A DNA stretch of 64,000 nucleotides from NCBI GenBank assembly GCA_030651475.1, contig JAUSEW010000029.1, forward strand, positions 21,777 to 85,776, in the 5' to 3' direction. This document shows, piece after piece, positions 17,532-35,625 of this stretch. The stretch's first letter is position 1. Every line of letters starts with the position of its first letter. Under the pieces are notes generated by a model. It had not been told where the DNA came from and did no database searches. It was given only the letters and a program-made list of their open reading frames with translations. Source of the DNA: Candidatus Levyibacteriota bacterium. Its GTDB lineage: Bacteria; Patescibacteriota; Microgenomatia; Levybacterales; UBA12049. The position numbers were made by a program, and so were the translations under genes.

Positions 17532-17548
17532 TGAGCGGAGTCGAATCT

Positions 17549-18085
17549 ATGAAGATAATTTTAATAGGAATTCAGGGAGCAGGAAAATCAACTCAGGGGA
17601 ATTTACTTTCGGAAAAATTAAAAATTCCTTATCTCTCAACAGGGCATATTTTTAGATTTCTGGCAAAAGAGAAAACTAAACTTGGCCGCTATATAAAAGA
17701 GATAATGAATGCCGGATATCTTATTCCGGATAAAAAAACAGTTTCTATTGTCAGCAATTATCTTAAACGTCCGGAATATGCTAATGGCTATATCTTGGAT
17801 GGTTTTCCGAGAACCCTTGATCAGGTAAAAGAATTTAAAAACGGAGTTGATAAAGTAGTTTATTTAAAAGTTTCAGATAAAGAGGCTCTCTGGAGACTTT
17901 CCTATAGAAATGGAGACAACAGAGAAGACGAGACCCTAGCTGCTCTTAGGAAAAGAATTGAGCTTTTTCATAAGCTCACAGAACCTGTTTTGGATTATTA
18001 TAAGAACAAAGGGAATTTAGTTGAGGTAGACGGAGAAAAAGCAGTTGAGGAAGTGCATAAAGAAATTTTGGAAAAGATAAAATAA
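17549..18085 (+). CDS. adk: adenylate kinase (short type, no zinc lid)
   Basis: P-loop GIQGAGKSTQ, GFPRTLDQ motif; ATG 17549 preferred over GTG 17531. Confidence 0.85.
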   Translation: MKIILIGIQGAGKSTQGNLLSEKLKIPYLSTGHIFRFLAKEKTKLGRYIKEIMNAGYLIPDKKTVSIVSNYLKRPEYANGYILDGFPRTLDQVKEFKNGVDKVVYLKVSDKEALWRLSYRNGDNREDETLAALRKRIELFHKLTEPVLDYYKNKGNLVEVDGEKAVEEVHKEILEKIK

Positions 18086-18107: not shown

Positions 18108-18662
18108 ATGATCATTGTTTTTATCGGGCCACCATATGCCGGCAAAGATACTCAAGGAAGACTTTTAAGTCAGGAGTTTGGAAATATGCCCATTTTTAGT
18201 ATGGGTCATTTAATTCGTGAAGCACGAGAGTCTGGCAACGAAACGTTTATAAAAGCTTACGATGCATATGCTTTGAAAGGATTCCATCTTCCAACAGCGA
18301 TAAAATTTCCTTTACTTAAGGAAAAAATGGATCAAGCAAGAGACGGATTTATATTGGATAATTTTCCGGCAACAAAAGATGATCTTGTGATGCTTAATAA
18401 CTATTTATTGCAGGCAAATAAAAAAATTAATAAAGTAATATATATAGATATATCAGAGGAAGAGATGAGAAAGCGTTTTAAAAACGCATTCCGTGGCAGA
18501 AAAGACGATGATCCAGATATCGTAGCCACAAGGAGGGAAATTCAAAATCAGGATAGAGTTCCTGTCCTTGAATTTTATAAAAGTCAAAATCTTCTCTCGG
18601 AAATAAATGGCGAAGAAGATATAGATAAAATTCATAAAGAAATTTTGGAAAAGTTACAATAA
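18108..18662 (+). CDS. adenylate-kinase-like paralog with degenerate P-loop (GPPYAGKDTQ)
   Basis: 184 aa; same length and shared C-terminus HKEILEK with adk; DNFPATKDD in place of GFPRT. Confidence 0.65.
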   Translation: MIIVFIGPPYAGKDTQGRLLSQEFGNMPIFSMGHLIREARESGNETFIKAYDAYALKGFHLPTAIKFPLLKEKMDQARDGFILDNFPATKDDLVMLNNYLLQANKKINKVIYIDISEEEMRKRFKNAFRGRKDDDPDIVATRREIQNQDRVPVLEFYKSQNLLSEINGEEDIDKIHKEILEKLQ

Positions 18663-23399: not shown

Positions 23400-23861
23400 A
23401 TGGAGGATAAAAAAATAATAGAACCAAAAGTTGATAAAAAGGATTATATCTTCGCAGTTGGCAGACGTAAGGAGGCCATAGCCGGAGTGCGTTTTCATAA
23501 AAAAGATAAAGTTTCGTGGGGGGATATAACGGTAAACAAAGGAGAAATATTTGTTAATAAAATGCCGGCAGAAAAATATTTCGGAAGCCAAGCTGTAAAT
23601 GTATATAGCGAGCCATTGCGTCTTGCTAATATGGAGAATAAGTTTGCCATAACGGTTATTGTCAGAGGCGGAGGAAAATTTGGACAATTGGATGCTATGG
23701 TTTTGGGTATAGCAAGAGCGTTAAATCAATTAGACAGAGATAAATTTCGTCCGGCTCTTAAAAAACAGGGATTTCTTACTCGGGATTCCAGAACTAGGGA
23801 ACGTAGGAAAGTGGGAATGGGCGGTAAAGCAAGAAGAAGAAAACAAAGTCCTAAGAGGTAA
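23400..23861 (+). CDS. rpsI: 30S ribosomal protein S9
   Basis: 153 aa; C-terminal GGKARRRKQSPKR. Confidence 0.93.
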   Translation: MEDKKIIEPKVDKKDYIFAVGRRKEAIAGVRFHKKDKVSWGDITVNKGEIFVNKMPAEKYFGSQAVNVYSEPLRLANMENKFAITVIVRGGGKFGQLDAMVLGIARALNQLDRDKFRPALKKQGFLTRDSRTRERRKVGMGGKARRRKQSPKR

Positions 23862-24456
23862 ACTTTTTATAAAGTTTTATAAATTCTTCATTTTTTGACA
23901 AGAGTTTAGTTTCTTGCTCGCACCAGACAGAATAAGTACCGGGTTTTTGTTCGATTTCCCTTAAGAACTCCTGCCATTTTATCCATCTTACCCTCTCTAC
24001 CTCGCCGCGATTTAATAAAGGTTTTTTATCGCTAAACGCAATAAGGACAGGACAGATCTCATTTTCAACAATACCATTCATTTCTGCTTTGTAAGAAAAG
24101 TCGGGTAAAATTTCAAATAACTTATCTATCTTAATCCCCAATTCAAAATTTAATCTTCTCTTAGCAGCATCTATATTTGATTCATTAAGCATTGGGTGTC
24201 CGCAGACGGAATTTGACCAAACCAGAGGCCACGTCTTTTTCTTACCGCTTCGTTGCTGAAGAAGTAATTGTCCCTTAGAATTGAAAAGAAAAACGGAAAA
24301 TGCCCTATGTAAAGGAGTATTACTGTTATGTGTTGCTAATTTCGGAGCAATCCCCAATACGTTATTATTTTTATCAACTAAAACTACATAATCTTCTACT
24401 TTTTCCATAATGCAAACAAAAAACTTATCAGTAAGTAGATTAACAAAATCTGCCAA
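23851..24456 (-). CDS. idi: isopentenyl-diphosphate delta-isomerase type 1 (Nudix)
   Basis: HRAFSVFLFNSKGQLLLQQRSGKKKTWPLVWSNSVCGHP matches IDI-1 signature; true start possibly internal Met (MEKVEDYVV). Confidence 0.85.
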   Translation of the reverse strand: MADFVNLLTDKFFVCIMEKVEDYVVLVDKNNNVLGIAPKLATHNSNTPLHRAFSVFLFNSKGQLLLQQRSGKKKTWPLVWSNSVCGHPMLNESNIDAAKRRLNFELGIKIDKLFEILPDFSYKAEMNGIVENEICPVLIAFSDKKPLLNRGEVERVRWIKWQEFLREIEQKPGTYSVWCEQETKLLSKNEEFIKLYKKFTS

Positions 24457-24728
24457 AGCATAACTGAAATGAAAACAGTGCTAAGAAATAGAGAGATAGC
24501 TTCTCTTTTTAATCCATACGTATTTATCAGAACAGACCCAATTCTCCCAAACATAAATAAAATAATAAGCCCAACGAAGGGAGAGAAAATTACAGGTAAA
24601 AGGACAGGACGTCTTGTAACTTGCCTTATGGTTATAAATGGGTGAAATATAAGACCAATAAGAGTTTTTGTAAAAATGTACGCGCTAAAAATTAAAAATG
24701 TACTTTTTTTCATAGTCCTTCGATACAT
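24396..24728 (-). CDS. small integral membrane protein
   Basis: 110 aa, three hydrophobic segments. Confidence 0.35.
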   Translation of the reverse strand: MYRRTMKKSTFLIFSAYIFTKTLIGLIFHPFITIRQVTRRPVLLPVIFSPFVGLIILFMFGRIGSVLINTYGLKREAISLFLSTVFISVMLWQILLIYLLISFLFALWKK

Positions 24729-24781
24729 TCGATAAACTCAGTATCGCACTGAGCGAAGTCGAATGTGCGACAAGCTCAGGA

Positions 24782-25009
24782 TTATAACTTTCCAAAAATT
24801 TTCAAAATAAATTCACTGTAATTTTTCCCCAAAATGAAATGCAGGATTAAAGTAAAAATAATAGAAAGGGGAATTAAGATTCGCCAAGGATGATTTCCTA
24901 GCCAAGAACTTACGGAAAGAAATACTTTAGGCAGAAACATGCTCCTTAAAATTTTCTCCTGCTCTTGCGCCCTTTCTTCCAAAGTCTTAAGGAATTCGTG
25001 TTCGTTCAT
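24782..25009 (-). CDS. small membrane protein immediately downstream of ECF sigma factor (candidate anti-sigma factor)
   Basis: 75 aa, one TM segment; 4-bp overlap with sigma gene. Confidence 0.35.
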   Translation of the reverse strand: MNEHEFLKTLEERAQEQEKILRSMFLPKVFLSVSSWLGNHPWRILIPLSIIFTLILHFILGKNYSEFILKIFGKL

Positions 25010-25575
25010 GGTTCGACTTCGCTCACCATCTTCGATACTTCTGCACGGTCATAGGCGAGCTTAAAGCTTTGCCGAGCTCTAAAAAGAAGAGATTCGGCAG
25101 CTTTAAATGATAACTTTAATTTTACGGCAAGTTCTTTTACCGGAACTTGATCTTCGTAGTGTAGCTTGAGAACTTTTTGGTAGCTAATTGATAGACTCTG
25201 AAGAGATAATTCAATTCTGTCACGGATTTTATTTTTTTCAAACTGGAACTCCGGTTGATTTATTTCAGCTGCGGCAATTTGCAGAAAAGGCATTTGAGAT
25301 AAAAGTATGGATTTAATTTTCTGTTTGCGATAAAAATCAACGGTTTTATTATGGGCGATTCCATAAAGCCAAGCCAAAACGCTTTCATGCCTTCTTAGCA
25401 AAGATAACGAATCAATTGCTTCCAAGAAAACATCATTTGTTAATTCTTGAGCATCTTCGTGTCTCGCAAGCCTTTTTAAAAAATAGGATAAAATTTTTGG
25501 AGAATAAGATTTATAAAACTCAATTACTGCCTTACTATCTCCAGAAAGAATACGTTTTATGAAAGAAAAAGACAT
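25006..25575 (-). CDS. RNA polymerase sigma-70 family, ECF-type sigma factor
   Basis: 189 aa; region 2 (DAQELTNDVFLEA, VLAWLYGIAHNKTVDFYRK) and region 4 HTH. Confidence 0.75.
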   Translation of the reverse strand: MSFSFIKRILSGDSKAVIEFYKSYSPKILSYFLKRLARHEDAQELTNDVFLEAIDSLSLLRRHESVLAWLYGIAHNKTVDFYRKQKIKSILLSQMPFLQIAAAEINQPEFQFEKNKIRDRIELSLQSLSISYQKVLKLHYEDQVPVKELAVKLKLSFKAAESLLFRARQSFKLAYDRAEVSKMVSEVEP

Positions 25576-25653
25576 AGGGAGATTATATCAGATTTTTGCT
25601 GCGAATGATTTTGGGAAATTTTACGACTAGATAGAAGGAGGTATTGACGTACT

Positions 25654-26808
25654 ATGGATTTTCGTGCTTATGTAAGTGTTGATAAGAGACGTAAGGCAGT
25701 AGAAGATAATTTAAAAGTTAACCTTTCTAATATTGGCAATTATTCCTTTGATTCAAAGCTGGCATCTTCAAGAAATTGCGAGAATATGATTGGAGCAGTT
25801 CAAATTCCATTAGGGATTGCTGGGCCTTTAAAAATAAAAAGCGATTTCTCTGAAGATGAAGTTTTTTTACCGTTAGCTACAACAGAAGGGGCTTTAGTTG
25901 CATCTGTAAATAGGGGATGTAAGGTAATTACTCTAAGCGGAGGAGTAACTGTTAATAGCCAAAGGATAGGAATAACAAGAGCTCCGGTTTTTGTGGTGAA
26001 TAATCAAAAAGAAGGTAAAAAGTTCGTAGAGTGGGTAAATTCTAGCTTTAAACTTCTTAAGCAAGTTACGGAATCCACTTCATCTCATCTGACCCTTTTA
26101 GATATAAAATCTACCTTCATGGGAAGAAATGTTTATTTAAGATTTAGATTTGATTCACAAGATGCAATGGGCATGAATATGGCAACAATTGCGTGTACCA
26201 AAGCGGCATCTTTTATAGAAAAAGAAACAAAAGCGCGATTAGTGGCGATTTCCGGGAATATGTGTGTTGATAAAAAGCCTAGTTTATTAAATTTTATTGA
26301 AGGAAGAGGGTATTCCGTTTCAGCTGACATATTAATCCCACGAAAAATTGTAGAATCTACGTTAAAGTCTAAAACAGAAAGTATCGTCGAAGTCGCGCAG
26401 CGCAAGCTAATGTACGGGTCTTTACTTTCGGGCAGTGTTGGGGCAAATGCTCACTATGCAAATATTTTATCAGCTATGTTTATAGCGACTGGACAAGACG
26501 CAGCGCATGTGGCAGAATGTTCTGTAGGTATAACAACAGCGGAAGAAATAAAGGGTGATCTCTATGTCTCAATATATCTACCCGATCTCGTGGTAGGAAC
26601 AGTTGGCGGAGGAACATCTCTTGAAACCCAAAAAGAAGCATTATCAATTATGGGAATTAGTGGTGGCAATAATGGAAAAAATGCAAGAAAATTAGCAGAA
26701 ATTATTGGAGGAGCTGTGCTCGCAGGAGAGATTTCCTTATTAGCATCTTTAGCGGATAATTCTTTAGCATCAGCTCATCGGAAATTAGGGAGGGGAGAAA
26801 AAATATAA
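25654..26808 (+). CDS. hmgA: 3-hydroxy-3-methylglutaryl-CoA reductase (class-I-like catalytic domain)
   Basis: 384 aa; ENMIG, DAMGMNM, GTVGGGT signatures. Confidence 0.9.
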   Translation: MDFRAYVSVDKRRKAVEDNLKVNLSNIGNYSFDSKLASSRNCENMIGAVQIPLGIAGPLKIKSDFSEDEVFLPLATTEGALVASVNRGCKVITLSGGVTVNSQRIGITRAPVFVVNNQKEGKKFVEWVNSSFKLLKQVTESTSSHLTLLDIKSTFMGRNVYLRFRFDSQDAMGMNMATIACTKAASFIEKETKARLVAISGNMCVDKKPSLLNFIEGRGYSVSADILIPRKIVESTLKSKTESIVEVAQRKLMYGSLLSGSVGANAHYANILSAMFIATGQDAAHVAECSVGITTAEEIKGDLYVSIYLPDLVVGTVGGGTSLETQKEALSIMGISGGNNGKNARKLAEIIGGAVLAGEISLLASLADNSLASAHRKLGRGEKI

Positions 26809-26812
26809 AATT

Positions 26813-27850
26813 ATGACAGGAATTGTTGGATACGGAACCTATATTCCGAAATATCGTCTTAGACTTTCTGAAATTGCCAAGGTGTGGGGAAAGGATACGG
26901 CCGAAATAGAAAATGGACTGCGTATTTCTGAAAAAGCTGTTCCTGGTTTTGATGAAGATGCCGTAACTATGGGAGTGGAAGCATCAAAAAAAGCCATTGC
27001 TATGGCAGGTATTAATCCTTCTTCTCTGCAAAGCGTATATTTTGGTTCAGAAAGTCATCCTTACGCTGTTAATCCTTCTTCAACAACACTTGGAGAATAT
27101 TTGGGTATAGGAAATAATTATTTTGCGGCAGATTTGGAGTTTGCCTGCAAAGCCGCTACAGCCGGCATGCAGATAACAGTGGGATTAATAGATAGCAAAA
27201 ATATAAAATATGGTTTGGTTGTGGGAAGTGACACTGCTCAAGGTAAACCTCACGATGCGTTAGAATATACAGCAGCGAGTGCCGCATGCGCGTACATTTT
27301 GGGGAATAAGGAAACAGAAATTATTGCAAAAATTCTGGAAATGTCATCCTTCTCATCCGACACTCCTGATTTCTGGAGAAGGGATGGAGCCAAATATCCA
27401 TCCCATTTTGGAAGATTTACTGGCGAACCGGCGTATTTTACTCACATAATTCAAGAGGGGAAAAATTTACTTGCAAAAAGCAAACTTAAGCCTGAAGATT
27501 TTGACTACTGTGTTTTTCATATGCCTAACGGTAAATTTCCAAGAGTTGTTGCTAAAAAACTTGGATTTACCTCCGGGCAACTAGCACAATCTCTTATAGT
27601 TGATAAAATTGGCAATCCGTATTCAGCATCTGCATTGATGGGATTAGCAAGCGTCCTAGATATTGCAAAACCAAAACAAAAAATATTCTTTGTTTCTTAC
27701 GGATCGGGTGCAGGATCAGATGGTTTCATATTTGAAACTACGAGTAGAATTTTACAAAAACAAAAAAAGATAATTACAGTCTCAAAGCAAATGGAAGATA
27801 AGATTTATATTTCCTATCCAACTTATTTAAGACAAACACACGTCATATGA
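26813..27850 (+). CDS. hydroxymethylglutaryl-CoA synthase (archaeal / short type)
   Basis: 345 aa; thiolase-fold HMGCS pattern, N-terminal GIVGYGTYIPKYRL. Confidence 0.85.
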   Translation: MTGIVGYGTYIPKYRLRLSEIAKVWGKDTAEIENGLRISEKAVPGFDEDAVTMGVEASKKAIAMAGINPSSLQSVYFGSESHPYAVNPSSTTLGEYLGIGNNYFAADLEFACKAATAGMQITVGLIDSKNIKYGLVVGSDTAQGKPHDALEYTAASAACAYILGNKETEIIAKILEMSSFSSDTPDFWRRDGAKYPSHFGRFTGEPAYFTHIIQEGKNLLAKSKLKPEDFDYCVFHMPNGKFPRVVAKKLGFTSGQLAQSLIVDKIGNPYSASALMGLASVLDIAKPKQKIFFVSYGSGAGSDGFIFETTSRILQKQKKIITVSKQMEDKIYISYPTYLRQTHVI

Positions 27851-28995
27851 AAATAAATATATTGGGAACTCATGCAACGAAATTTGGAGAGTTATGGAAT
27901 ATATCTCCGCGTGCATTAGCAAGGGAGGCAATGGAAAATGCATTAAATGCATCCGGCTTGAAAGCATCTGATATAGACGCTTTATATGTAGGGAATATGT
28001 TGTCCGGAATTTTGGGTAATCAAGCGAATTTAGGATCCTTGCTCGTTGAAGAGCTGGGTGTTCAAGTTCCCGCTTTTAGAATAGAAGGCGCTTGCGCTTC
28101 AGGAGGTTTAGCTTTGCATAACGCGATTAACAGTCTTAAAGCGGGGCAATATAAAACAGTTTTGGTTTTAGGTATAGAAAAAATGACAGATCATAGTCAA
28201 GATGAGATTACAAATGCTTTAATGTCTGCGGGATCGGACGAAGAGCGTTTGGCTGGTGCAACATTTCCCGGAGTATATGCGCTAATGGCCCAAGCCTATA
28301 TGCAGCAATATAAAGTAAGCGAAGAAGATTTGGCTTGCGTTTCCGTAAAAAACCATTATCATGGAACGCTAAATCCCAAAGCTCAATTCCAATTTCCCAT
28401 AACCATAGCCGATGTTATGAGAAGCGCAAAGATTGCTGATCCGCTCAAACTTCTAGATTGTTCTCCGATTTCAGATGGGGCTGCGGCAGTTGTTATTACC
28501 AGCGAAAATATTCTTAAAAAAAATAAGAAACCCATACAGATTATTGCAAGCGAAGTAGCCACAGACACGCTTAGTCTTCATGACAGAAAATCTTTTACCA
28601 GTTTGAGTGCCGTTGTTGAAGCATCTACGAAAGCGTATGGAAAAGCAGGATTAAAACCTTCGGATATTGATGTTGCTGAAATTCATGATTGTTTTTCAAT
28701 TTCAGAGGCGATTGCAACAGAAGATTTAGGTTTTTCTAAAAAGGGCGAAGGTGCAAGGGATATTGCCAAAGGCAAGAGAACGCTTTTTAAAGGGGATATT
28801 ATTTGTAATCCATCGGGAGGACTAAAAGCCTGCGGTCATCCTGTTGGAGCAACAGGCATAAAGCAGATAGTCGAGCTTACGGAACAGCTTAGAGGAGAAG
28901 CTGGGAAACGTCAGGTTGAAAAAGCAAGGATTGGTTTGGCTCACAATGTCGGGGGAAGCGGTACGATAGCGGCAATTCATATTTTACAAAAATAG
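27847..28995 (+). CDS. acetyl-CoA C-acetyltransferase (archaeal-type thiolase)
   Basis: 382 aa; thiolase pattern with active-site Cys (EGACASGG), HDCFSI, NPSGG. Confidence 0.85.
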   Translation: MKINILGTHATKFGELWNISPRALAREAMENALNASGLKASDIDALYVGNMLSGILGNQANLGSLLVEELGVQVPAFRIEGACASGGLALHNAINSLKAGQYKTVLVLGIEKMTDHSQDEITNALMSAGSDEERLAGATFPGVYALMAQAYMQQYKVSEEDLACVSVKNHYHGTLNPKAQFQFPITIADVMRSAKIADPLKLLDCSPISDGAAAVVITSENILKKNKKPIQIIASEVATDTLSLHDRKSFTSLSAVVEASTKAYGKAGLKPSDIDVAEIHDCFSISEAIATEDLGFSKKGEGARDIAKGKRTLFKGDIICNPSGGLKACGHPVGATGIKQIVELTEQLRGEAGKRQVEKARIGLAHNVGGSGTIAAIHILQK

Positions 28996-29000
28996 ATATT

Positions 29001-29303
29001 ATGATAACATCACCGGTAAAACTTTGGAGAAGGCAAAAAAATACATCAGCTCTTATAGGGAAAAAAGGGAAAATTTTGCAGTGGACAATTATTCGGGTTC
29101 CGGCTAAATCTTTTATTGATCAAGCGCCGTACCCTGTTGTAATTGTGAAAATGCAAAATGGAGAAAATATGATTGGGCAATTAGTTGACTGGCAGGAAAA
29201 AGATTTGATAGTAGGGAAAGACGTTATTGCTGTTTTGCGAAGATTGAGAACGGAAGGGAAAGAAGACGTTATCTACTACAACATTAAATTCAAGCCTCTA
29301 TGA
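29001..29303 (+). CDS. DUF35-family OB-fold protein (thiolase/HMGCS partner), lacking zinc-ribbon
   Basis: 100 aa; OB-fold pattern; no cysteines; position right after thiolase as in archaea. Confidence 0.6.
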   Translation: MITSPVKLWRRQKNTSALIGKKGKILQWTIIRVPAKSFIDQAPYPVVIVKMQNGENMIGQLVDWQEKDLIVGKDVIAVLRRLRTEGKEDVIYYNIKFKPL

Positions 29304-30367
29304 AAAAAATTCAAGTTTCTGCCCCGGGTAAGTTACATTTATTGGGCGAACACGTGGTAGTACACGGAAAACCAGCTATTATTGCAACGGTAAATAAACG
29401 CTGTTTTGTAGAAATTACTCCCCGAAAAGATAGGAAAATAGAAATTATTTCTGAAAATTTGAAAGCAAGTAAGATAGTTACGGAAAAAGAAATTATTGCA
29501 AAAACTAAAGAAGCGCAAACAAAATGGGAAACTTATATAAAAACTAATGAGATATCTCTTCTTAAGTCTATAGCTTCAGATCCCTTAGACTTTCCGATTA
29601 TTGTTATTGGTGAGACTTTAAAATATCTTAACAAAACTTTACCATTTGGTTTTACTCTATCAATAAAATCAGATATTCCAATTGGTTCCGGGATGGGATC
29701 TTCTGCGGCACTTAGTGTTTCTATAGCTGGTGCCATGTATTTATTGTTTAATAAAAATTTAGATAAAGAAGTTATAAATGAAATTGCCTATCTTGCAGAA
29801 CAAAAGAAACACGGCCTTCCGTCCGGAGGAGACAATGTTGCTAGTTGTTTTGGAGGAATGGTTTGGTATCGTAAAGAAACACCAGACTTAAAAATTATCA
29901 AACCAATTCCTTTTTCCTTCCCCCGAAAATTGGCAAAGAATTTTGTCGCCATTCATACAGGTATTCCAATTGAATCAACAGGCGAAATGGTAAGTATCGT
30001 ACGGGGACTATATCAAACAAAAAAAGATTTTGTTGAAAATATTTTATCAAGCCAGGAAAAACTAACACGAGAGCTTCTATCTGCAATAAAGGATGGCGAC
30101 GACACTCTAATGATACGTATCATTAGAGCGGGAGAGAAAAACCTTGAAGCGTTAGGGGTTGTAGGAAAAAAGGCACAAGCTATAATTAGGGAAATAGAAA
30201 AGTTAGGAGGAGCGGCAAAAATATCTGGAGCAGGAGGTATTAAGAATGGGTCGGGAATGCTTCTTGCTTACCATAAAACACCAGTAGCTCTTGATGAAGC
30301 TTGTTTGCAATTTAAACTTACGAATAGTAAAATAGCGCTTGGAGACGAGGGCTTAAGACAGGAGTAA
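29300..30367 (+). CDS. mvk: GHMP kinase, mevalonate kinase-like
   Basis: 355 aa; APGKLHLLGEHVVV N-terminus, PIGSGMGSSAA motif 2; contains 24-bp palindrome copy 3. Confidence 0.75.
   Translation: MKKIQVSAPGKLHLLGEHVVVHGKPAIIATVNKRCFVEITPRKDRKIEIISENLKASKIVTEKEIIAKTKEAQTKWETYIKTNEISLLKSIASDPLDFPIIVIGETLKYLNKTLPFGFTLSIKSDIPIGSGMGSSAALSVSIAGAMYLLFNKNLDKEVINEIAYLAEQKKHGLPSGGDNVASCFGGMVWYRKETPDLKIIKPIPFSFPRKLAKNFVAIHTGIPIESTGEMVSIVRGLYQTKKDFVENILSSQEKLTRELLSAIKDGDDTLMIRIIRAGEKNLEALGVVGKKAQAIIREIEKLGGAAKISGAGGIKNGSGMLLAYHKTPVALDEACLQFKLTNSKIALGDEGLRQE
30105..30128. repeat. 24-bp perfect palindrome CTCTAATGATACGTATCATTAGAG inside mvk coding sequence, copy 3 of 3
   Basis: read directly; 25 nt (30104-30128) identical to 1196-1220. 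Confidence 0.95.
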
Positions 30368-30371
30368 AATT

Positions 30372-31226
30372 ATGGTACCCATAAACTATGGAGGAAGAAT
30401 TGAAAGTAGAGGTCCTGAAACCTATAGGAGTCAGTCCTTATTAGACACTATTTTTCAAGCAACTGGTTTAGAAAATTTTCAAGGAAGTGCAGTTGTTATC
30501 GATTTAATGTCGGGTCCTGGAGGAATAGCGCTTAATCTTCAGAAAAAAGCCTCCAGACATTCTTATGCTGTTCTAGATTATGATCAGGAACAATTAGCCA
30601 AAATAGGGGAGCACGAGCCCGTAAATAAGATATTGGCTGATGTAAGGAATGTATCTTCTGTTGTTAAAGGAGAATCTGTAGATATCGCAACTGCTCGTTA
30701 TGGGATTAAGGATATACCTCAAGGGCAACAGCTTCAAGCGCTCAAAGGTATTAATGAGATATTGAGACCAGGAGGAGTTTTTGTGCTTACAGATATGATT
30801 TCCTTGGAAGGTGAAGGATTGCAGAGGTGGCTTAACATACAACATAGTCAAAAGCAGCAGCTTAGCGGAAGAGAAATTGAAAAAGAGGGAGAGTGTTATA
30901 TCCCGACAGAAAAAGAGTGGCTAGCGATGTTAAAAGAAGTGGGTTTTGAAGCGGAAGTTTTTGGTTATTATACAAGTCCTATTTCTACTGGGGATTGGCT
31001 TACGGGAAATCAATTTGGTAATCCAAAATCACCGGAAGCGGCCAGGAAAAAAGCTATTATGGACGAGATAATAATGAACGCTCCAGAAGGTGTGAAAAAA
31101 GCGTTTAATGTGCGACAAGGAGTGAATGGTATGGAAATTGATTATCCAGTTGTTATAATAAGAGCAGTTAAGAAAGTAGCAGAGTCTGGTTTGCCTACTG
31201 CTGGTGATTTATATGCCGCAAGCTAA
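30372..31226 (+). CDS. class I SAM-dependent methyltransferase
   Basis: 284 aa; motif I VIDLMSGPGGIA, motif post-I ILRPGGVFVL. Confidence 0.7.
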   Translation: MVPINYGGRIESRGPETYRSQSLLDTIFQATGLENFQGSAVVIDLMSGPGGIALNLQKKASRHSYAVLDYDQEQLAKIGEHEPVNKILADVRNVSSVVKGESVDIATARYGIKDIPQGQQLQALKGINEILRPGGVFVLTDMISLEGEGLQRWLNIQHSQKQQLSGREIEKEGECYIPTEKEWLAMLKEVGFEAEVFGYYTSPISTGDWLTGNQFGNPKSPEAARKKAIMDEIIMNAPEGVKKAFNVRQGVNGMEIDYPVVIIRAVKKVAESGLPTAGDLYAAS

Positions 31227-32190
31227 AAAGATTACTGTTTCGGCGCCGGGGAAATTAATGCTTTTAGGTGAGCATGCTGTTGTCTATGATCATCCCTGTT
31301 TGGTAACTGCTGTTGACCAAAGAATGCGGGCAACTGTTGAAACTTTAGATTCTTTAGAATTCCAATTGGAAGCAGAAGACGTAAAGGTTACCGGTTATAA
31401 AAAGCCTTTAAGCGAAGTTGGTATTGGAGATATCCCAAAGGGCGCAAAATTTGTAGAAATTGCTCTAAAAAATATTAATGAAAAATATCCTCTTAAAACA
31501 GGATTAAAAATAACAACTACATCGGAATTCTCTTCCCAATTCGGATTTGGATCTTCTTCCGCATCAACAGTCTGTACGATAAAAGCGGTTTCTGAAATTC
31601 TGGGTTTGAATTTATCTGAAAAAGCAATTTTTGATCTTGCGTTTAAAACTGTTTTGGATATTCAGGGAAAAGGATCGGGTTTTGATGTGGCAGCTGCGGT
31701 TTATGGCGGAACTCTGTATTTCGTAACCGGCGGAAAAGTAATTGAGCCTTTAGATATTAAATCATTGCCGTTAATTGTTGGATATAGCGGAGTAAAAGGA
31801 GACACAGTAACGTTGATGAACAAAGTAAAAGAGACTTTTGCCGATAAACAAGGTCGTCTTAATCAAATTTATAATAGTATTGAAGCCTTGGTTGATCAAG
31901 CAAAAATGGTACTTCTTAAAAGCGATTGGAAAACATTTGGAGACCTAATGAATCAGAATCAGAAATATTTAAGCGAATTAGGAATTAGTATTGAAAAACT
32001 TGATAATATGATTAAAGGCGCACTTGATGCAGGCGCTTATGGCGCAAAGCTTTCCGGCGCAGGAGGAGGGGATTGTATGATTGCTATTGCGACAGAAGAA
32101 AAAAAACAAGCAGTTGAGCAAGGCATCAATGCAGTTGGCGGAGAAGTTATCAATGTTGGCACCAACGCAGAAGGCGCAAGAGTGGAATAA
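31204..32190 (+). CDS. GHMP kinase (mevalonate / phosphomevalonate kinase; assignment ambiguous)
   Basis: 328 aa; APGKLMLLGEHAVVY, GFGSSSAS, KLSGAGGGDCMIA motifs; 23-nt overlap with upstream methyltransferase gene. Confidence 0.7.
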   Translation: MIYMPQAKKITVSAPGKLMLLGEHAVVYDHPCLVTAVDQRMRATVETLDSLEFQLEAEDVKVTGYKKPLSEVGIGDIPKGAKFVEIALKNINEKYPLKTGLKITTTSEFSSQFGFGSSSASTVCTIKAVSEILGLNLSEKAIFDLAFKTVLDIQGKGSGFDVAAAVYGGTLYFVTGGKVIEPLDIKSLPLIVGYSGVKGDTVTLMNKVKETFADKQGRLNQIYNSIEALVDQAKMVLLKSDWKTFGDLMNQNQKYLSELGISIEKLDNMIKGALDAGAYGAKLSGAGGGDCMIAIATEEKKQAVEQGINAVGGEVINVGTNAEGARVE

Positions 32191-32194
32191 AATT

Positions 32195-32971
32195 ATGGGA
32201 CATGAAGCATCATTAGTGCCAGATATTTTGCCTCCAGGTAGAAGAATTGCTCTGATAGATATAGATGGTACATTGACTGAGGGTCTTACCATCTCTTCGT
32301 TTGCTGAATACTTAGACAATAACGATTCTTTTAATTCATCTTCGTGGGATCATATGCAGGAAGATTTTTCTCGTTATAGCGCCAGCGATCATGGACATGC
32401 TGCTTATGAGCAATTTGCCGTAGATTTAGTATTGCATTATGCTGATGGATTAAGAGACTACAGAGTAAGCGATGTCGAAGCTATGGCTGGCAAGTTTTTT
32501 GTTTCTGTGCAAAGAAATGAGGTTCCTGAATACAGAGTGTATCCATTTTCTCCTCAGCTAGTTCATCTTATGAATAAAATAGGAACAACAATAGCAGTTT
32601 CCGGTTCTCCAGCTGAGTCACTTGCTCCGTTAAAACGCATTCTTAATTTAGGAGATTTAAGAGCTACTGCTATTGGACAAAAGAATGGAATCTATACAGG
32701 AAGAGTAGATATTAATTTGGCATTAGACTCTGAAAAGAAAAAGGTAGTTGGGGAATATATAGCTGAAGATACAGATAGCGCACGCTCTTTTGCTTTTGGA
32801 GATACGATGCATGATTTGCCCATGCTGGAAGCTGTGGGAAATCCTTTTGTGGTTGGAGATAATTCGCATTTACTAGCTGTTGCAAGAAGAAGGGGATGGT
32901 CTATAATTAATTCTGACAATGCTATTGATCAAGTAGCGCAGAGAATAAACACTTTATTTAAGAATACTTAA
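32195..32971 (+). CDS. HAD-superfamily hydrolase, subfamily IB-like
   Basis: motif I IALIDIDGTLTE, motif IV GDTMHDLPML; ATG 32195 chosen because ORF-track start 32081 overlaps upstream gene. Confidence 0.65.
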   Translation: MGHEASLVPDILPPGRRIALIDIDGTLTEGLTISSFAEYLDNNDSFNSSSWDHMQEDFSRYSASDHGHAAYEQFAVDLVLHYADGLRDYRVSDVEAMAGKFFVSVQRNEVPEYRVYPFSPQLVHLMNKIGTTIAVSGSPAESLAPLKRILNLGDLRATAIGQKNGIYTGRVDINLALDSEKKKVVGEYIAEDTDSARSFAFGDTMHDLPMLEAVGNPFVVGDNSHLLAVARRRGWSIINSDNAIDQVAQRINTLFKNT

Positions 32972-33948
32972 TGAAAGCAACTGCAGTAGCCCCGTCAAAT
33001 ATAGCATTCGTCAAATATTGGGGTAAAAAAGACGAAAAGCTTCGACTTCCTGAAAACGGCAGTATCTCCATGAATTTAAATAATCTTCAGACTACAACAA
33101 CTGTTGAGTTTAATAAAGATTTTAGAGAAGACTTAATTATCATTAACGATCAGAAAGAGGAAAATGAAGGAAGCAGAGCTATAAAGCATTTAGATAGAAT
33201 TAGAATTCTTGCAAAAATAAATTACAAAGCAAAAGTAGTAACTAAAAATAATTTTCCTACAGGTACCGGACTTTCTTCATCTGCATCAGGTTTTGCAGCG
33301 TTAACTTTAGCCGGCGCAAAAGCAGCTGGATTAAATCTGTCGGAAAAAGAATTGTCAATTCTTGCAAGACAAGGATCTGGTTCTGCTTGCCGTTCTATTC
33401 CAGGTGGATTCGTAGAATGGTTAGATGGGGATACAAGCGATACATCTTATGGCGTGTCGTTATATCCTAAAAATTATTGGGACATTGTTGATGTGGTTGC
33501 TGTTGTTAGTAAAAACAAAAAAGAAGTTAGCACGACTGAAGGACAAAAATTGGCAAAATCAAGTCCGTTTTTTCCGATTCGTTTAGCAAGAATAAAAGAA
33601 AAAATTAGATTAATAAAACAATATTTGAAGGAAAAAGATTTTAAAAATTTCGGAGAATTGTTGGAAGCGGAAGCATTGGAACTTCATGCAATTATGTTAA
33701 CCTCAACACCTTCGCTTATATATTGGTTGCCGGGAACTTTGAAAGTTATGCATGCTGTTAAAAGATGGAGAGCTGAAGGATTACAAGTTTATTTTACTGT
33801 TAATACAGGGCAGGATATTCATCTGATTTGTCAAAAAAAAGACGTTGAAAAAGTTGTTAAAAAAGCAGAAGAGATATTAGATGTTCAAAAAACAATTGTC
33901 AATTATCCTAGCAAAGGAGCGCATTTAATTTCAGCACATCTTTTTTAA
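32971..33948 (+). CDS. mvaD: diphosphomevalonate decarboxylase
   Basis: 325 aa; SNIAFVKYWGKKDE, GLSSSASGFAAL. Confidence 0.88.
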   Translation: MKATAVAPSNIAFVKYWGKKDEKLRLPENGSISMNLNNLQTTTTVEFNKDFREDLIIINDQKEENEGSRAIKHLDRIRILAKINYKAKVVTKNNFPTGTGLSSSASGFAALTLAGAKAAGLNLSEKELSILARQGSGSACRSIPGGFVEWLDGDTSDTSYGVSLYPKNYWDIVDVVAVVSKNKKEVSTTEGQKLAKSSPFFPIRLARIKEKIRLIKQYLKEKDFKNFGELLEAEALELHAIMLTSTPSLIYWLPGTLKVMHAVKRWRAEGLQVYFTVNTGQDIHLICQKKDVEKVVKKAEEILDVQKTIVNYPSKGAHLISAHLF

Positions 33949-34838
33949 AAAGTTCTTTTTTCTATAATTTCAACTAAATCTAAAAATTTCTTTTTATATT
34001 TTATTTCCATTTCCATATTTGCAATAATTATTTTAGCGCTCTTTATATTATCTTTAACTATCTCTTTTTGAGATGCTAAGTCTTTATGTTTTCGGTTGGT
34101 ATCAAATATATCGTCTTGAGATTGAAAAGCTATGCCCAATCCCAATCCTAATTCTTTGCAAAACCTTTCTGCGTGCGAAGTTAATTCTCCTGCCAAGGAC
34201 GCACCAATCAATAAGGGATAAATAAAAGAGTATCTTGCTGTTTTTAGATAGTTTATCTTAGAATTTAAAGTCGGTATTATTTTTTGGCGTGATTGAGAAT
34301 CAATATCGAGCATTTGACCCACTATTGTTCCATCAACCATATCGAAAAAAAACTTTCTTACTCTTTGAATTGCAGATTGATCAAAGTCCAAATTTAAATT
34401 TATAATTTCCGTAGCCCAATTGAAGAAAAGATCTCCTAAAAGAATTGCCTGTGAGTTACCGAAATGTTCATAATTTTTATTTCCCCTTTCTTTTTTTAAT
34501 TTCTCACCAATATATATATGAGAGGCATATATTCCATGACGCATGTTTCCTTTATCCATAATATCATCATGGATAAGTGCAAATATATGAAAGATCTCGA
34601 GTGCAATTAATAATTTCAGAACTTTTTCTGTTTCCTTTCCTCCAAAAGCCTGATATGTTAGAAATGCGATAAATGGGCGTATGCGTTTTCCGCCTGATAA
34701 AGTAATTTTTTTAGCATAGTTAATATAGTCAATAATTGAAGAATCTTTGGTATAATTAATAATGCTCTTCATTTTTTTATCAAGGTAGTCCTGGAGATAG
34801 GGGTCAAATTTTTGTTTAAATACTTCTAAGTCGTTCAT
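33945..34838 (-). CDS. short-chain trans-polyprenyl diphosphate synthase (FPP/GGPP synthase family)
   Basis: 297 aa; first DDxxD (LIHDDIMD) and second (FQSQDDIFD) Asp-rich motifs. Confidence 0.85.
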   Translation of the reverse strand: MNDLEVFKQKFDPYLQDYLDKKMKSIINYTKDSSIIDYINYAKKITLSGGKRIRPFIAFLTYQAFGGKETEKVLKLLIALEIFHIFALIHDDIMDKGNMRHGIYASHIYIGEKLKKERGNKNYEHFGNSQAILLGDLFFNWATEIINLNLDFDQSAIQRVRKFFFDMVDGTIVGQMLDIDSQSRQKIIPTLNSKINYLKTARYSFIYPLLIGASLAGELTSHAERFCKELGLGLGIAFQSQDDIFDTNRKHKDLASQKEIVKDNIKSAKIIIANMEMEIKYKKKFLDLVEIIEKRTF

Positions 34839-34842
34839 TGTT

Positions 34843-35625
34843 TTATTTTAATCTTGCTCCAAATCTTCTTTCTCTTTTAGAATAATCAATTAAAGCTCTT
34901 ACGAAGTCCTTCATATCGGCGTCCGGTAAAAGCTTTGAGATAGAGTAAAATTCTGAATTCTGGTTAAGCCAGCCAATGTCGGAAGTTCTTTGTTCGCCGC
35001 TAGTTCTTATTATTAGATCTGCAGGATGAATTTCTCCTTGACCATCTCTTAACCTTTTTAACATATCATGAGTAATTTTGGTATTTTTTGGAAGTTTTTG
35101 TATTTCCTGCATGATTCTTAATTCCTGATCTTCTCCTCCAAAATCAATTGCGATGCAAAGAATTTTTCCTTTGTTGTTTTTTGTCATATCTTCAACTTTT
35201 CGCATAGTATCTTTTAAGTTCAAGGGGATTCTATCTTTTCTGCCAATATGGATAAAGCGGCTTTTATTTTTTAAAAGGTCTGGCGTAATTTCTTTTATTG
35301 CTCCTTCAAAAAGTTTCATTAAATCCTCAACTTCTTTTTTTGACCTTTTCCAGTTATCGGCAGCAAATCCCCAAATAGTAATAGTATTTATAGGTAATTC
35401 CTGTAAATTACTTAAGACATTTTTTAGAACCCTATATCCTTGTTGATGTCCAATAATAGGAATGCTGTTTAGCCTTCTTGCCCATCGTCCATTACCATCA
35501 GGAATAATTAATAGATGATTAGGAAATTTTCCTTCAGGGATACTCTTTAAATCCGGAAATCTTTCGAAAATACTCTTTTTCATAAAGCAGATTGTAATTG
35601 TATCCTGAAAAATAGCAAAATGCAA
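34843..35625 (-). CDS. uppS: undecaprenyl-diphosphate synthase (cis-prenyltransferase)
   Basis: 260 aa; HLLIIPDGNGRWA, TIWGFAADNWKRS. Confidence 0.88.
   Translation of the reverse strand: MHFAIFQDTITICFMKKSIFERFPDLKSIPEGKFPNHLLIIPDGNGRWARRLNSIPIIGHQQGYRVLKNVLSNLQELPINTITIWGFAADNWKRSKKEVEDLMKLFEGAIKEITPDLLKNKSRFIHIGRKDRIPLNLKDTMRKVEDMTKNNKGKILCIAIDFGGEDQELRIMQEIQKLPKNTKITHDMLKRLRDGQGEIHPADLIIRTSGEQRTSDIGWLNQNSEFYSISKLLPDADMKDFVRALIDYSKRERRFGARLK

What the first reader, a model, noticed from the sequence alone, without database searches (positions are those of the whole stretch)
23851..35625. Complete mevalonate pathway plus prenyl-diphosphate module in one locus of a CPR-like bacterium
All steps from acetyl-CoA to IPP/DMAPP are present and contiguous: thiolase, HMGCS, HMGR with class I motifs, two MVK-like GHMP kinases, MVD and IDI-1. 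GGPP/FPP synthase and UppS follow. The ribosomal-operon traits elsewhere in the window suggest a reduced CPR/Patescibacteria genome. Such genomes usually lack most lipid biosynthesis, so a full archaeal/eukaryote-style MVA route is notable and may reflect ancient lateral transfer.
Basis: partly seen in the sequence, partly recalled or inferred. Interest (0 to 1): 0.7.

Follow-up and report, generated by a model that had tools for sequence, protein, structure and literature searches.

The report
Mevalonate pathway operon of a Levybacterium
The window really does carry a complete acetyl-CoA-to-undecaprenyl-diphosphate gene cluster in a CPR (Levybacteria) genome, but this cluster type was described for this group in 2018, so only some enzyme details seem unreported.

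Summary
Window 23851-35625 holds IDI-1, class I HMGR, archaeal-type HMG-CoA synthase, archaeal-type thiolase, two mevalonate-kinase-like GHMP kinases, an MVD-family decarboxylase, a trans-prenyl synthase and UppS.

The organism is a Candidatus Levybacteria MAG (Microgenomates, CPR).

The core HMGR-to-decarboxylase order is conserved in about 60 Microgenomates species. Hoshino & Gaucher (2018) already described the CPR gene set, including its linkage to cis-prenyltransferase. It is the norm for this lineage, not an oddity.

Three features seem unreported in the papers I searched:
- The decarboxylase has Asn278 in place of the catalytic Asp said to be conserved in all related decarboxylases. Its best solved relative is a Chloroflexi phosphomevalonate decarboxylase.
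- The DUF35 partner lacks the zinc ribbon.
- A CPR-only methyltransferase family and non-orthologous HAD phosphatases recur at fixed slots in the operon.

Which kinase acts as MVK and which as PMK is unsettled. Gene context suggests the reverse of what similarity scores suggest. Overall: a known kind of system, low to moderate interest.

The parts
23851..24456 (-). Type 1 isopentenyl-diphosphate isomerase (NUDIX fold). The likely true start is the ATG at codon 17 (about 24408).
   Evidence: NF002995 at 213 bits and TIGR02150 at 153 bits, both above cut-off. NUDIX Pfam match. Cys in 'NSVCGHP' and Glu in 'VENEICP' are present.
24396..24728 (-). 110-aa multi-pass membrane protein of unknown function, between the anti-sigma-like gene and IDI-1.
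   Evidence: No Pfam match. Hydrophobic sequence. Homologues at 52-94% identity sit in the same place in Levybacteria-like loci.
24782..25009 (-). 75-aa single-pass membrane protein whose start overlaps the sigma gene stop by 4 nt. Candidate anti-sigma factor.
   Evidence: ORF listed. The same gene is called on L001. A 76-aa family occupies this position in 25 related loci.
25006..25575 (-). ECF-like sigma-70 factor, divergent from HMGR across a 78-bp spacer.
   Evidence: Sigma70_r2 and r4_2 matches. A sigma gene lies next to the cluster in Levybacteria-like loci (divergent) and Gottesmanbacteria-like loci (same strand).
25654..26808 (+). Class I (NADPH) HMG-CoA reductase, soluble 384-aa form.
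   Evidence: TIGR00533 at 447 bits (cut-off 442), against class II TIGR00532 at 58 bits. Motifs CENMIG, DAMGMN, DKKP, GTVGGGT and a C-terminal His are present.
26813..27850 (+). Archaeal-type HMG-CoA synthase.
   Evidence: NF003274 at 496 bits and TIGR00748 at 438 bits. The bacterial model TIGR01835 scores only 117 bits (cut-off 360). Glu/Cys/His residues are present in GSESH, FACKAA and VFHMPNG.
27847..28995 (+). Archaeal-type acetoacetyl-CoA thiolase.
   Evidence: PRK06064 at 483 bits. 96% identical to a Patescibacteria MAG, 80-87% to Levybacteria MAGs, and 48-53% to the nearest archaea.
29001..29303 (+). DUF35/OB-fold partner of thiolase and HMGCS, in a short form without the zinc ribbon.
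   Evidence: PF01796 match. The protein has no Cys. CPR homologues have a median length of 100 aa and 62 of 63 lack CxxC. All 12 archaeal homologues are 132-184 aa with two CxxC motifs.
29300..30367 (+). GHMP kinase 1 (355 aa). Probably the mevalonate kinase.
   Evidence: TIGR00549 at 183 bits. Carries the canonical 'E-x10-D' motif AEQKKHGLPSGGD. It is the only kinase kept in CPR clusters of the form kinase-decarboxylase-IPK. NCBI names it mevalonate kinase.
30372..31226 (+). Class I SAM-dependent methyltransferase of a small CPR-only family. Substrate unknown.
   Evidence: Methyltransf_25 and UbiE-like matches. Only 28 homologues were found, and every context examined places the gene beside MVA kinases. 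The AF2 model has pLDDT 91.5 and its best folds are uncharacterised small-molecule MTs. The gene is absent from the closest species, L002.
31213..32190 (+). GHMP kinase 2 (325 aa). Probably the phosphomevalonate kinase.
   Evidence: TIGR00549 at 207 bits, PMK models at 91-110 bits. Motif 'QGKGSGFDVAAAVYGG' resembles Listeria PMK 'QGNGSCGDIASCMYGG'. An orthologue sits in the mvaK2 position in L122. This kinase is missing from IPK-bearing clusters. The 31213 start matches NCBI entry MDO8621461.1, which is named mevalonate kinase.
32195..32971 (+). HAD-IB family phosphatase (258 aa, DxDxT motif 'IDIDGT'). Accessory gene, substrate unknown.
   Evidence: PF12710 and TIGR01490 matches. The start lies 5 nt after the kinase 2 stop, and the stop overlaps the decarboxylase start. 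No orthologue was found in the other loci examined. A Cof-type HAD fills the same slot in 7 relatives.
32971..33948 (+). MVD-family decarboxylase with Asn278 (AAT, 33802-33804) at the catalytic Asp position and Asp282 four residues later.
   Evidence: TIGR01240 at 271 bits. Best PDB match is Anaerolinea thermophila PMD 6n0x/6n0z at 316-318 bits, against 220 bits for E. faecalis MDD. Motif analysis.
33945..34838 (-). Short-chain trans-prenyl diphosphate synthase (FPP/GGPP).
   Evidence: PF00348 match. FARM is DDIMD with Phe at position -5, and SARM is DDIFD. Absent in closest relative L167, present in L168.
34843..35625 (-). Undecaprenyl-diphosphate synthase (cis-prenyltransferase).
   Evidence: PF01255 at 177 bits. 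DGNGRWA and RTSGEQRTSD motifs present. Syntenic with the cluster in many loci.

Best explanation
This is the lineage-typical mevalonate operon of a Levybacterium (Microgenomates, CPR). It supplies IPP and DMAPP for polyprenyl-phosphate carrier lipid.

Inferred flow:
1. The archaeal-type thiolase and HMG-CoA synthase, probably held together by the short DUF35 protein as in archaea, turn three acetyl-CoA into HMG-CoA.
2. The soluble class I HMGR reduces HMG-CoA to mevalonate.
3. GHMP kinase 1 (29300-30367) most likely makes mevalonate 5-phosphate.
4. GHMP kinase 2 (31213-32190) most likely makes the 5-diphosphate.
5. The MVD-family enzyme decarboxylates this to IPP.
6. IDI-1 equilibrates IPP with DMAPP.
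7. The trans-synthase makes FPP/GGPP.
8. UppS extends this to undecaprenyl diphosphate for cell-wall assembly.

What is shown and what is inferred: gene identities, intact catalytic motifs (apart from the decarboxylase Asp position), tight operon packing and conservation across the lineage are shown. The enzyme activities, the order of the two kinases, the decarboxylase substrate and formation of the complex are inferred.

The methyltransferase and the HAD phosphatase are accessory genes. They are absent from the closest species, so they are not needed for the core route. The adjacent ECF-like sigma factor and anti-sigma-like protein, which precede IDI-1 on the minus strand, may tie expression to envelope state (inference).
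For: - Family assignments are above curated cut-offs for every step.
- Catalytic motifs were read directly from the sequences.
- The nine genes from HMGR to the decarboxylase are separated by 0-5 nt or overlap.
- The same gene order occurs in about 60 Microgenomates species, as published (PMC6107057).
- Kinase assignment: clusters of the form GHMP1-decarboxylase-IPK that lack kinase 2 occur in L038, L048, L120, L121 and L150. GHMP1 carries the canonical HGxPSGxD mevalonate-kinase motif, also seen in the archaeal MVK of L072. Kinase 2 carries a PMK-like GSGFDVAA motif and sits in the mvaK2 position in L122.
- Decarboxylase: it keeps the YWGK lysine, GSGSACRS and the P-loop. It is conserved at 76-100% identity in 120 homologues with the Asn fixed. 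The D281N mutant of Saccharolobus DMD retains decarboxylase activity (PMC9254496).
- No IPK and no MEP gene was found in the window.
Against: - No biochemistry exists for any CPR MVA enzyme.
- Kinase 2 scores higher than GHMP1 against archaeal mevalonate kinases (131 vs 86 bits to the M. mazei MVK) and against MVK models. One locus, L029, keeps only kinase 2. NCBI calls both kinases mevalonate kinase.
- The decarboxylase lacks the Asp described as conserved in all DMD, PMD and MBD enzymes, and the D309N mutant of Picrophilus MBD is inactive.
- The decarboxylase is closest to a phosphomevalonate decarboxylase. It has Arg25, as PMDs do, and lacks the Met typical of MDDs.
- Only 64 kb of the genome was seen, so an IPK or MEP genes elsewhere are not excluded.
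Confidence: 0.75

Rival explanations
1. The lower half runs by the Chloroflexi/haloarchaeal route. One kinase makes mevalonate 5-phosphate, the decarboxylase acts as a phosphomevalonate decarboxylase and makes isopentenyl phosphate, and an isopentenyl phosphate kinase encoded elsewhere finishes the job. The second MVK-like kinase would then be redundant or have another substrate.
For: - The best solved relative is Anaerolinea PMD (316-318 bits, against 220 bits for bona fide MDDs). Its identity as a PMD comes from PMC9254496.
- Arg25 matches the PMD-type Arg of Dellas et al. Table 4 (PMC3857490).
- The MDD-type Arg193 and Met196 positions are Thr and Gln.
- CPR relatives with an IPK directly after the decarboxylase exist.
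- Hoshino & Gaucher note IPK in many Microgenomates.
Against: - The YWGK lysine is present. AthPMD has Asn there and Roseiflexus MPD has Leu.
- Every decarboxylase that sits next to an IPK without kinase 2 has His at the Met196 column. The window enzyme has Gln.
- Both kinases are retained and tightly coupled in the operon.
- No IPK was found in the 64-kb window.
Confidence: 0.17
2. The cluster is a recent lateral acquisition by this genome from archaea or from MVA-bearing bacteria.
For: HMGCS, thiolase and DUF35 are archaeal-type, and the nearest non-CPR thiolases are archaeal. HMGR shows a mosaic pattern against the closest species, so recombination does occur at this locus.
Against: - The same order is found in about 60 Microgenomates species, with identities falling gradually with relatedness.
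- The nearest archaeal proteins are only 48-53% identical.
- GC content is the same as in the flanking ribosomal and recA genes.
- The archaeal loci recovered mostly share only the HMGCS-thiolase-DUF35 trio.
- The HMGR mosaic involves another HMGR of 45-72% identity, the range seen among the CPR loci, not a foreign type.
Confidence: 0.03
3. The decarboxylase step is altered or disabled by the Asp-to-Asn change. In one version the enzyme only phosphorylates at C3. In another, together with the methyltransferase and phosphatase, the operon makes something other than plain IPP.
For: - The Asp is reported as conserved in all DMD, PMD and MBD enzymes.
- D281T/V turn Saccharolobus DMD into a kinase, and D309N kills Picrophilus MBD.
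- Asn occurs in only 11 of the 150 nearest cluster representatives.
- Accessory MT and HAD genes recur at fixed slots.
Against: - The D281N mutant of Saccharolobus DMD keeps decarboxylase activity.
- The Asn clade is conserved, with all other active-site motifs intact, in more than 120 sequences.
- These genomes keep IDI-1 and UppS, which need IPP.
- Many Asn-type loci have neither MT nor HAD.
- MT and HAD are absent from the closest species.
Confidence: 0.05

Closest known systems
CPR-type mevalonate gene cluster (Hoshino & Gaucher 2018, Mol Biol Evol, PMC6107057)
   Same: The enzyme set is the same: archaeal AACT, HMGS, HMGR-I, two GHMP kinases, a DPMD homologue and IDI-I. Clustering, linkage to cis-IPPS, and occurrence in Microgenomates also match.
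   Different: That paper does not mention the DUF35 partner, methyltransferase, phosphatase, sigma factor or the aspartate (term search). It labels the kinases MVK and PMVK by phylogeny. Gene context here suggests that the kinase closer to archaeal MVKs may be the PMK.
Archaeal thiolase/HMG-CoA synthase/DUF35 complex. The structural study in Methanothermococcus is cited from my own knowledge. DUF35-thiolase-HMGS complexes are also discussed in PMC12960953, of which I saw only the title and the start of the abstract.
   Same: There are three adjacent genes with archaeal-type thiolase and HMGCS. The OB-fold domain and the N-terminal 'WRR...LIG' segment of DUF35 are kept.
   Different: The CPR DUF35 is 100 aa and has lost the roughly 33-residue CxxC...CxxC zinc ribbon present in all 12 archaeal neighbours examined. 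Complex formation has not been tested.
Classical diphosphomevalonate decarboxylase (for example S. epidermidis, E. faecalis)
   Same: GHMP fold, YWGK lysine, GSGSACRS motif with the carboxylate-binding Arg, P-loop, and a loop Lys.
   Different: The catalytic Asp is replaced by Asn278. The Ser-Arg...Met segment is Thr-Thr...Gln. Ile27 is Arg. The score to these enzymes is only about 196-220 bits, against 318 bits to a PMD.
Phosphomevalonate decarboxylase of Chloroflexi (Anaerolinea thermophila 6N0X; Roseiflexus MPD, PMC3857490)
   Same: It is the highest-scoring solved relative. It shares Arg at the Ile27 position and Thr at the Arg193 position. This fits the recent placement of CPR as sister to Chloroflexota (PMC11052028).
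   Different: The window enzyme has Lys where AthPMD has Asn, Gln where it has His, and Asn where it has the catalytic Asp280. No IPK lies nearby. CPR clusters that do carry an IPK look different: no kinase 2, and His at that column.
Firmicutes mevalonate operons (mvaK1-mvaD-mvaK2, mvaS, class II mvaA)
   Same: Both give a seven-step route from acetyl-CoA to IPP/DMAPP using two GHMP kinases and a GHMP decarboxylase.
   Different: HMGR is class I, not class II. HMGCS and thiolase are archaeal-type and come with a DUF35 partner. The isomerase is IDI-1 (IDI-2 being usual in Firmicutes is from my own knowledge). The gene order differs.

Membership tests
CPR-type MVA cluster (Hoshino & Gaucher 2018) | The host is a CPR/Patescibacteria bacterium, typically Microgenomates. 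| tested here: met
   Proteins are 100% identical to entries of an NCBI 'Candidatus Levybacteria bacterium' MAG. The thiolase is 80-96% identical to Levybacteria/Patescibacteria MAGs. S5 is followed directly by L15 with no L30.
CPR-type MVA cluster (Hoshino & Gaucher 2018) | Archaeal-type AACT and HMGS together with HMGR-I. | tested here: met
   PRK06064 at 483 bits, TIGR00748 at 438 bits, TIGR00533 at 447 bits. Class II HMGR and bacterial HMGS models score far below their cut-offs.
CPR-type MVA cluster (Hoshino & Gaucher 2018) | MVK, PMVK and DPMD homologues plus IDI-I. | tested here: met
   Two GHMP kinases, a TIGR01240 decarboxylase and NF002995 IDI-1 are present. Which kinase is the PMVK remains inconclusive.
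CPR-type MVA cluster (Hoshino & Gaucher 2018) | Genes are clustered and syntenic with cis-IPPS. | tested here: met
   UppS at 34843-35625 lies about 0.9 kb from the decarboxylase. The same linkage is seen in many loci.
Archaeal thiolase/HMGCS/DUF35 complex | Adjacent thiolase, HMGCS and DUF35 genes. | tested here: met
   Genes at 26813-29303. The trio is shared with archaeal loci L068-L081.
Archaeal thiolase/HMGCS/DUF35 complex | DUF35 has a four-Cys zinc ribbon followed by an OB fold. | tested here: not met
   The OB fold is present (PF01796), but the protein has no cysteines. 62 of 63 CPR homologues lack CxxC, while 12 of 12 archaeal ones have two.
Archaeal thiolase/HMGCS/DUF35 complex | The three proteins form a physical complex that channels acetoacetyl-CoA. 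| not testable with these tools
   This needs co-purification or a structure.
Classical diphosphomevalonate decarboxylase (MDD) | Catalytic Asp in the T-M-D-A-G-P-N loop. | tested here: not met
   The window has F-T-V-N278-T-G-Q-D282. The Asn is fixed in 119 of 120 close homologues.
Classical diphosphomevalonate decarboxylase (MDD) | Diphosphate-binding residues Tyr18, Lys21, Ser139, Ser141, Ser192 (Dellas et al. Table 4). | tested here: inconclusive
   Tyr, Lys, Ser and Ser are present. Ser192 is Thr. Arg193 is Thr and Met196 is Gln.
Phosphomevalonate decarboxylase (PMD/MPD) | A non-Lys residue after YWG, and His at the Met196 column, as in AthPMD. These are the two positions that differ between PDB sequences 6N0X and 6N0Z. 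| tested here: not met
   The window has Lys19 and Gln192.
Phosphomevalonate decarboxylase (PMD/MPD) | A partner isopentenyl phosphate kinase in the genome. | tested here: inconclusive
   tblastn with a CPR IPK found nothing in the 64-kb window. The rest of the genome was not available.
Firmicutes-type bacterial MVA pathway | Class II HMGR, bacterial mvaS-type HMGCS and thiolase II. | tested here: not met
   TIGR00532 at 58 bits (cut-off 260). TIGR01835 at 117 bits (cut-off 360). Thiolase II models score at most 126 bits.
Archaea-type MVA pathway (via anhydromevalonate phosphate) | Aconitase-type phosphomevalonate dehydratase, UbiD-type decarboxylase and IPK. These features are taken from my own knowledge. 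| tested here: not met
   No such gene was found among the ORFs of the window that I scanned against Pfam. The whole genome was not tested.

The most novel reading that the evidence does not exclude
Levybacteria and their close relatives run a modified lower mevalonate pathway. Its decarboxylase naturally carries Asn instead of the catalytic Asp reported as conserved in all related decarboxylases. The CPR-only methyltransferase, together with interchangeable HAD or HD phosphohydrolases wedged between the kinases and the decarboxylase, would act on phosphorylated C5/C6 intermediates. That could mean methylating or dephosphorylating them for regulation, or making a non-canonical building block. 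In addition, the two kinases may be annotated the wrong way round in current pathway reconstructions.
Probability: 0.12. Interest if true: 0.65.

Novelty: already known. Interest (0 to 1): 0.3.

Why it matters
The main point, a full mevalonate route next to prenyl-diphosphate synthases in a CPR genome, matters for the debate on the origin of isoprenoid synthesis. It also helps explain how organisms with minimal metabolism still make the carrier lipid for their cell wall. That case was made in 2016-2018, and this locus adds one more example.

The new value lies in details that could be tested directly:
- A whole clade of decarboxylases has Asn at the 'catalytic' Asp. This is a natural experiment on the disputed role of that residue.
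- Sister CPR lineages show both the two-kinase version and the kinase-decarboxylase-IPK version of the same operon. That gives a clean system for studying how the classical and alternative routes interconvert.
- Public annotation names both kinases 'mevalonate kinase', which I would expect to make automated reconstructions score the pathway as incomplete.
- The zinc-less DUF35 and the operon-embedded methyltransferase and phosphatases are unexplained.

Tried and rejected
1. Sequence scores to decide which kinase is the PMK. NCBIfam, whole-protein PDB search and a motif-segment PDB search all rank mevalonate kinases first for both proteins. None was decisive, so I fell back on gene context.

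2. The Dellas et al. six-residue signature to call MDD versus PMD. The window enzyme is mixed. Lys at the first position also occurs in decarboxylases that sit next to an IPK, so the signature is not reliable on its own. Only His at the Met196 column tracked the IPK-type clusters.

3. The idea that Asp282 compensates for Asn278 by a D/N swap. It is weakened because 4 of 120 close homologues and about 5 of 11 Asn-type cluster representatives have Asn or another residue at +4.

4. Assigning a substrate to the methyltransferase. There was no PDB sequence match. A confident AF2 model matched only uncharacterised or generic small-molecule methyltransferases.

5. The HAD phosphatase. The only PDB relative is an uncharacterised protein, 3fvv.

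6. The promoter and terminator scan gave no more sites than shuffled sequence.

7. Thomas et al. 2019 and Motoyama et al. 2017 could not be read. Their results are quoted second-hand from PMC9254496 and PMC7414129.

8. Genome-wide absence of the MEP pathway could not be tested.

Full report
**What is there**

On the plus strand, nine genes run from 25654 to 33948 with spacers of 0-5 nt or overlaps:
- class I NADPH HMG-CoA reductase
- archaeal-type HMG-CoA synthase
- archaeal-type thiolase
- a 100-aa DUF35/OB-fold protein
- GHMP kinase 1
- a class I SAM methyltransferase
- GHMP kinase 2
- a HAD-IB phosphatase (true start ATG 32195)
- an MVD-family decarboxylase

Convergent on the minus strand are a short-chain trans-prenyl synthase (FARM DDIMD with Phe at -5; SARM DDIFD) and UppS.

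Upstream and divergent from HMGR, a minus-strand unit encodes four proteins: an ECF-like sigma factor, a 75-aa single-pass membrane protein that overlaps its stop, a 110-aa membrane protein, and IDI-1.

Catalytic motifs of HMGR, HMGCS, thiolase, IDI-1, IPPS and UppS are intact.

**Whose genome**

- The decarboxylase, methyltransferase, both kinases, thiolase, DUF35 and IPPS are identical to NCBI proteins MDO8621457-MDO8621464. These come from a 'Candidatus Levybacteria bacterium' MAG, on a 90,247-bp contig.
- The thiolase is 96% identical to a Patescibacteria MAG and 80-87% to named Levybacteria MAGs. The best non-CPR matches are DPANN and other archaea at 48-53%.
- In the ribosomal operon, S5 is followed directly by L15 with no L30. 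Absence of L30 as a CPR hallmark is from my own knowledge.
- GC content across the cluster (0.33-0.38) matches the rest of the window.

**How ordinary it is**

I ran tblastn with the window's proteins against 80 GTDB species loci. HMGR-HMGCS-thiolase-DUF35-kinase1-kinase2-decarboxylase appears in about 60 Microgenomates species. IDI-1, UppS, IPPS and a sigma factor are usually adjacent. Archaeal loci mostly share only the HMGCS-thiolase-DUF35 trio.

This matches Hoshino & Gaucher 2018, who reported that:
- these genes are clustered and syntenic with cis-IPPS;
- the MEP pathway is sparse in CPR.

Peregrinibacteria were described earlier. Later work questions the LUCA inference and places CPR next to Chloroflexota.

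The refutation it proposed (Firmicutes-type genes) does not apply, because HMGR is class I and HMGCS and thiolase are archaeal-type.

**The decarboxylase**

Its best solved relatives are 6N0X and 6N0Z (316-318 bits). Both are deposited as 'diphosphomevalonate decarboxylase' but are the Anaerolinea thermophila phosphomevalonate decarboxylase. True MDDs score 220 bits or less.

At the phosphate-binding positions of Dellas et al., the comparison is:

| Enzyme | Residues |
|---|---|
| Window | Tyr, Lys, Arg, Ser, Ser, Thr, then Thr and Gln |
| AthPMD | Tyr, Asn, Arg, Ser, Ser, Ser, then Thr and His |
| Firmicutes MDD | Tyr, Lys, Ile, Ser, Ser, Ser, then Arg and Met |

The window signature is mixed.

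The loop T-M-D-A-G-P-N, which holds the catalytic Asp, reads F-T-V-N278-T-G-Q-D282 in the window.
- The Asn is present in 119 of 120 close homologues.
- It is present in nearly all of the roughly 40 loci whose decarboxylase is 57-86% identical to the window's. Most of the more distant loci keep Asp.
- Among the 150 best 50%-identity cluster representatives in a 1.84-billion-protein library, about 135 have D-A-G. Only 11 have N-T-G, most of them among the closest hits.

The literature states that this Asp is conserved in all DMD, PMD and MBD enzymes. D281T/V convert Saccharolobus DMD into a kinase and D281N keeps activity. D309N inactivates Picrophilus MBD. The role of the Asp is still debated.

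I therefore expect the Levybacteria enzyme to be active. It is nevertheless a natural exception, and I found no mention of it.

**The two kinases**

Both pass the mevalonate-kinase model, and NCBI names both 'mevalonate kinase'.

Kinase 2 is closer to archaeal MVKs (131 vs 86 bits to the M. mazei enzyme). This is presumably why it would be called MVK by similarity.

Gene context argues the other way:
- Five CPR clusters have kinase1-decarboxylase-IPK and lack kinase 2: L038, L048, L120, L121 and L150. The IPK was confirmed as AA-kinase family. The PMD/IPK route needs MVK but not PMK, so the kinase that is kept should be MVK.
- Kinase 1 has the canonical E-x10-D 'HGxPSGxD' motif, also found in the archaeal MVK of L072. 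Kinase 2 has 'QGKGSGFDVAAAVYGG', like Listeria PMK and the putative PMK of L072.
- In L122 an orthologue of kinase 2 sits after a classical MDD, in the mvaK2 position.

Against this reading, L029 keeps only kinase 2.

I put about 65% on kinase 1 being MVK and kinase 2 being PMK.

Three loci (L093, L099, L119) carry IPK together with both kinases. This matches the 'both routes' picture of Hoshino & Gaucher.

**DUF35**

All 12 archaeal neighbours are 132-184 aa with two CxxC motifs. The 63 CPR proteins have a median length of 100 aa, and 62 lack any CxxC. They keep the N-terminal 'WRR...LIG' segment and the OB fold. The zinc ribbon has been cleanly deleted in the CPR lineage.

**Accessory genes**

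The methyltransferase:
- It belongs to a family of only 28 detectable members, and those with source names are CPR.
- In every context examined it sits directly upstream of a GHMP kinase of the MVA cluster. This holds at 36-43% identity and even outside the full cluster.
- The closest species, L002, lacks it. The nucleotide alignment skips exactly 30271-31230.
- Its invariant residues include several basic side chains plus His, Cys and Glu.
- A confident AF2 model (pLDDT 91.5) resembles uncharacterised small-molecule methyltransferases.
- Other loci carry a different methyltransferase, sometimes together with an HD-like protein, in the same slot.

The HAD-IB phosphatase:
- It has no orthologue in the other loci examined, and the closest species, L167, has nothing there.
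- A Cof-type HAD occupies the same kinase2-decarboxylase slot in L168 and six GTDB loci.
- Non-orthologous phosphatases at one slot hint at a selected function, but I cannot name it.

**Verdict**

- The CPR call is right.
- The 'surprising for CPR' reading is outdated.
- The system is a member of a published cluster type.
- The most likely function is supply of IPP/DMAPP for undecaprenyl-phosphate carrier lipid by a classical-type lower pathway.
- A PMD/IPK route is the main rival.
- The Asn-for-Asp decarboxylase, the zinc-less DUF35, the kinase assignment and the embedded methyltransferase and phosphatases are the points worth a specialist's follow-up.

Noticed in passing
window 54145-55155 (+): One 336-aa ORF fuses a cytidylyltransferase-like domain (PPAT-like) with DUF359. 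From memory, DUF359 is the archaeal GTP-dependent dephospho-CoA kinase family. That would make this an archaeal-style fused enzyme for the last two CoA steps, in a CPR genome whose MVA pathway consumes acetyl-CoA.
   Followed up: no
window 25930-26689 (inside HMGR), compared with L002: Against the closest GTDB species, nucleotide identity is 85-87% on both sides, but about 760 bp in the middle of HMGR has no nucleotide match. The HMGR proteins are only 54% identical, while thiolase is 96% and HMGCS 93%. Across Levybacteria, HMGR identity (45-72%) does not track thiolase identity. This suggests allelic replacement by recombination.
   Followed up: partly
L038 9616-12337; L048 11554-14158; L120, L121, L150: Sister CPR lineages carry HMGR-HMGCS-thiolase-DUF35-kinase1-decarboxylase-IPK with no kinase 2. 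Their decarboxylases have His at the Met196 column. This is an apparent PMD/IPK version of the same operon.
   Followed up: partly
L022 11140-12504; L023 4795-6153: DUF35 and GHMP kinase 1 appear as one ORF of 452-454 aa. This is a possible scaffold-kinase fusion, or a lost stop codon.
   Followed up: no
L036 12294-13865; L042 12556-14025; L054 12399-13856; L056 13276-14754: Kinase 2 ORFs of 485-523 aa are followed immediately by an IDI-1 match, suggesting in-frame kinase 2-IDI fusions in Gottesmanbacteria-like genomes. Several decarboxylase cluster representatives of 608-652 aa carry an extra N-terminal half (P0152, P0155, P0173, P0272).
   Followed up: no
window 24782-25575 (-) and related loci: An ECF-like sigma factor plus a small single-pass membrane protein is conserved beside the MVA cluster in both Levybacteria-like and Gottesmanbacteria-like loci. 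In the window this pair lies directly upstream of IDI-1 on the same strand.
   Followed up: partly
window 17531-18085 and 18108-18662 (+): Two tandem adenylate-kinase genes follow secY in the ribosomal operon.
   Followed up: no
window 15314-16248 (+): Ribosomal protein S5 is followed directly by L15 with a 4-nt overlap and no L30 gene. This fits a CPR genome.
   Followed up: yes
window 26805-26815, 30364-30374, 32187-32197: Three gene junctions in the operon share the same string TAAAATTATG (stop, 4 nt, start). This may be a recurring translational-coupling junction.
   Followed up: no
L004 5804-7944; L017 12495-14686; L030, L047; L085 532-2436: The slot between the two kinases holds other cargo in some relatives: a second, unrelated class I methyltransferase (335-360 aa), a 342-398-aa HD or HD-like protein, or both.
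   Followed up: partly
window 45582-46001 (-): A small cupredoxin-like protein sits next to RmuC and an AddA-like UvrD/PD-(D/E)XK helicase-nuclease. This is unexpected in a fermentative CPR genome.
   Followed up: no
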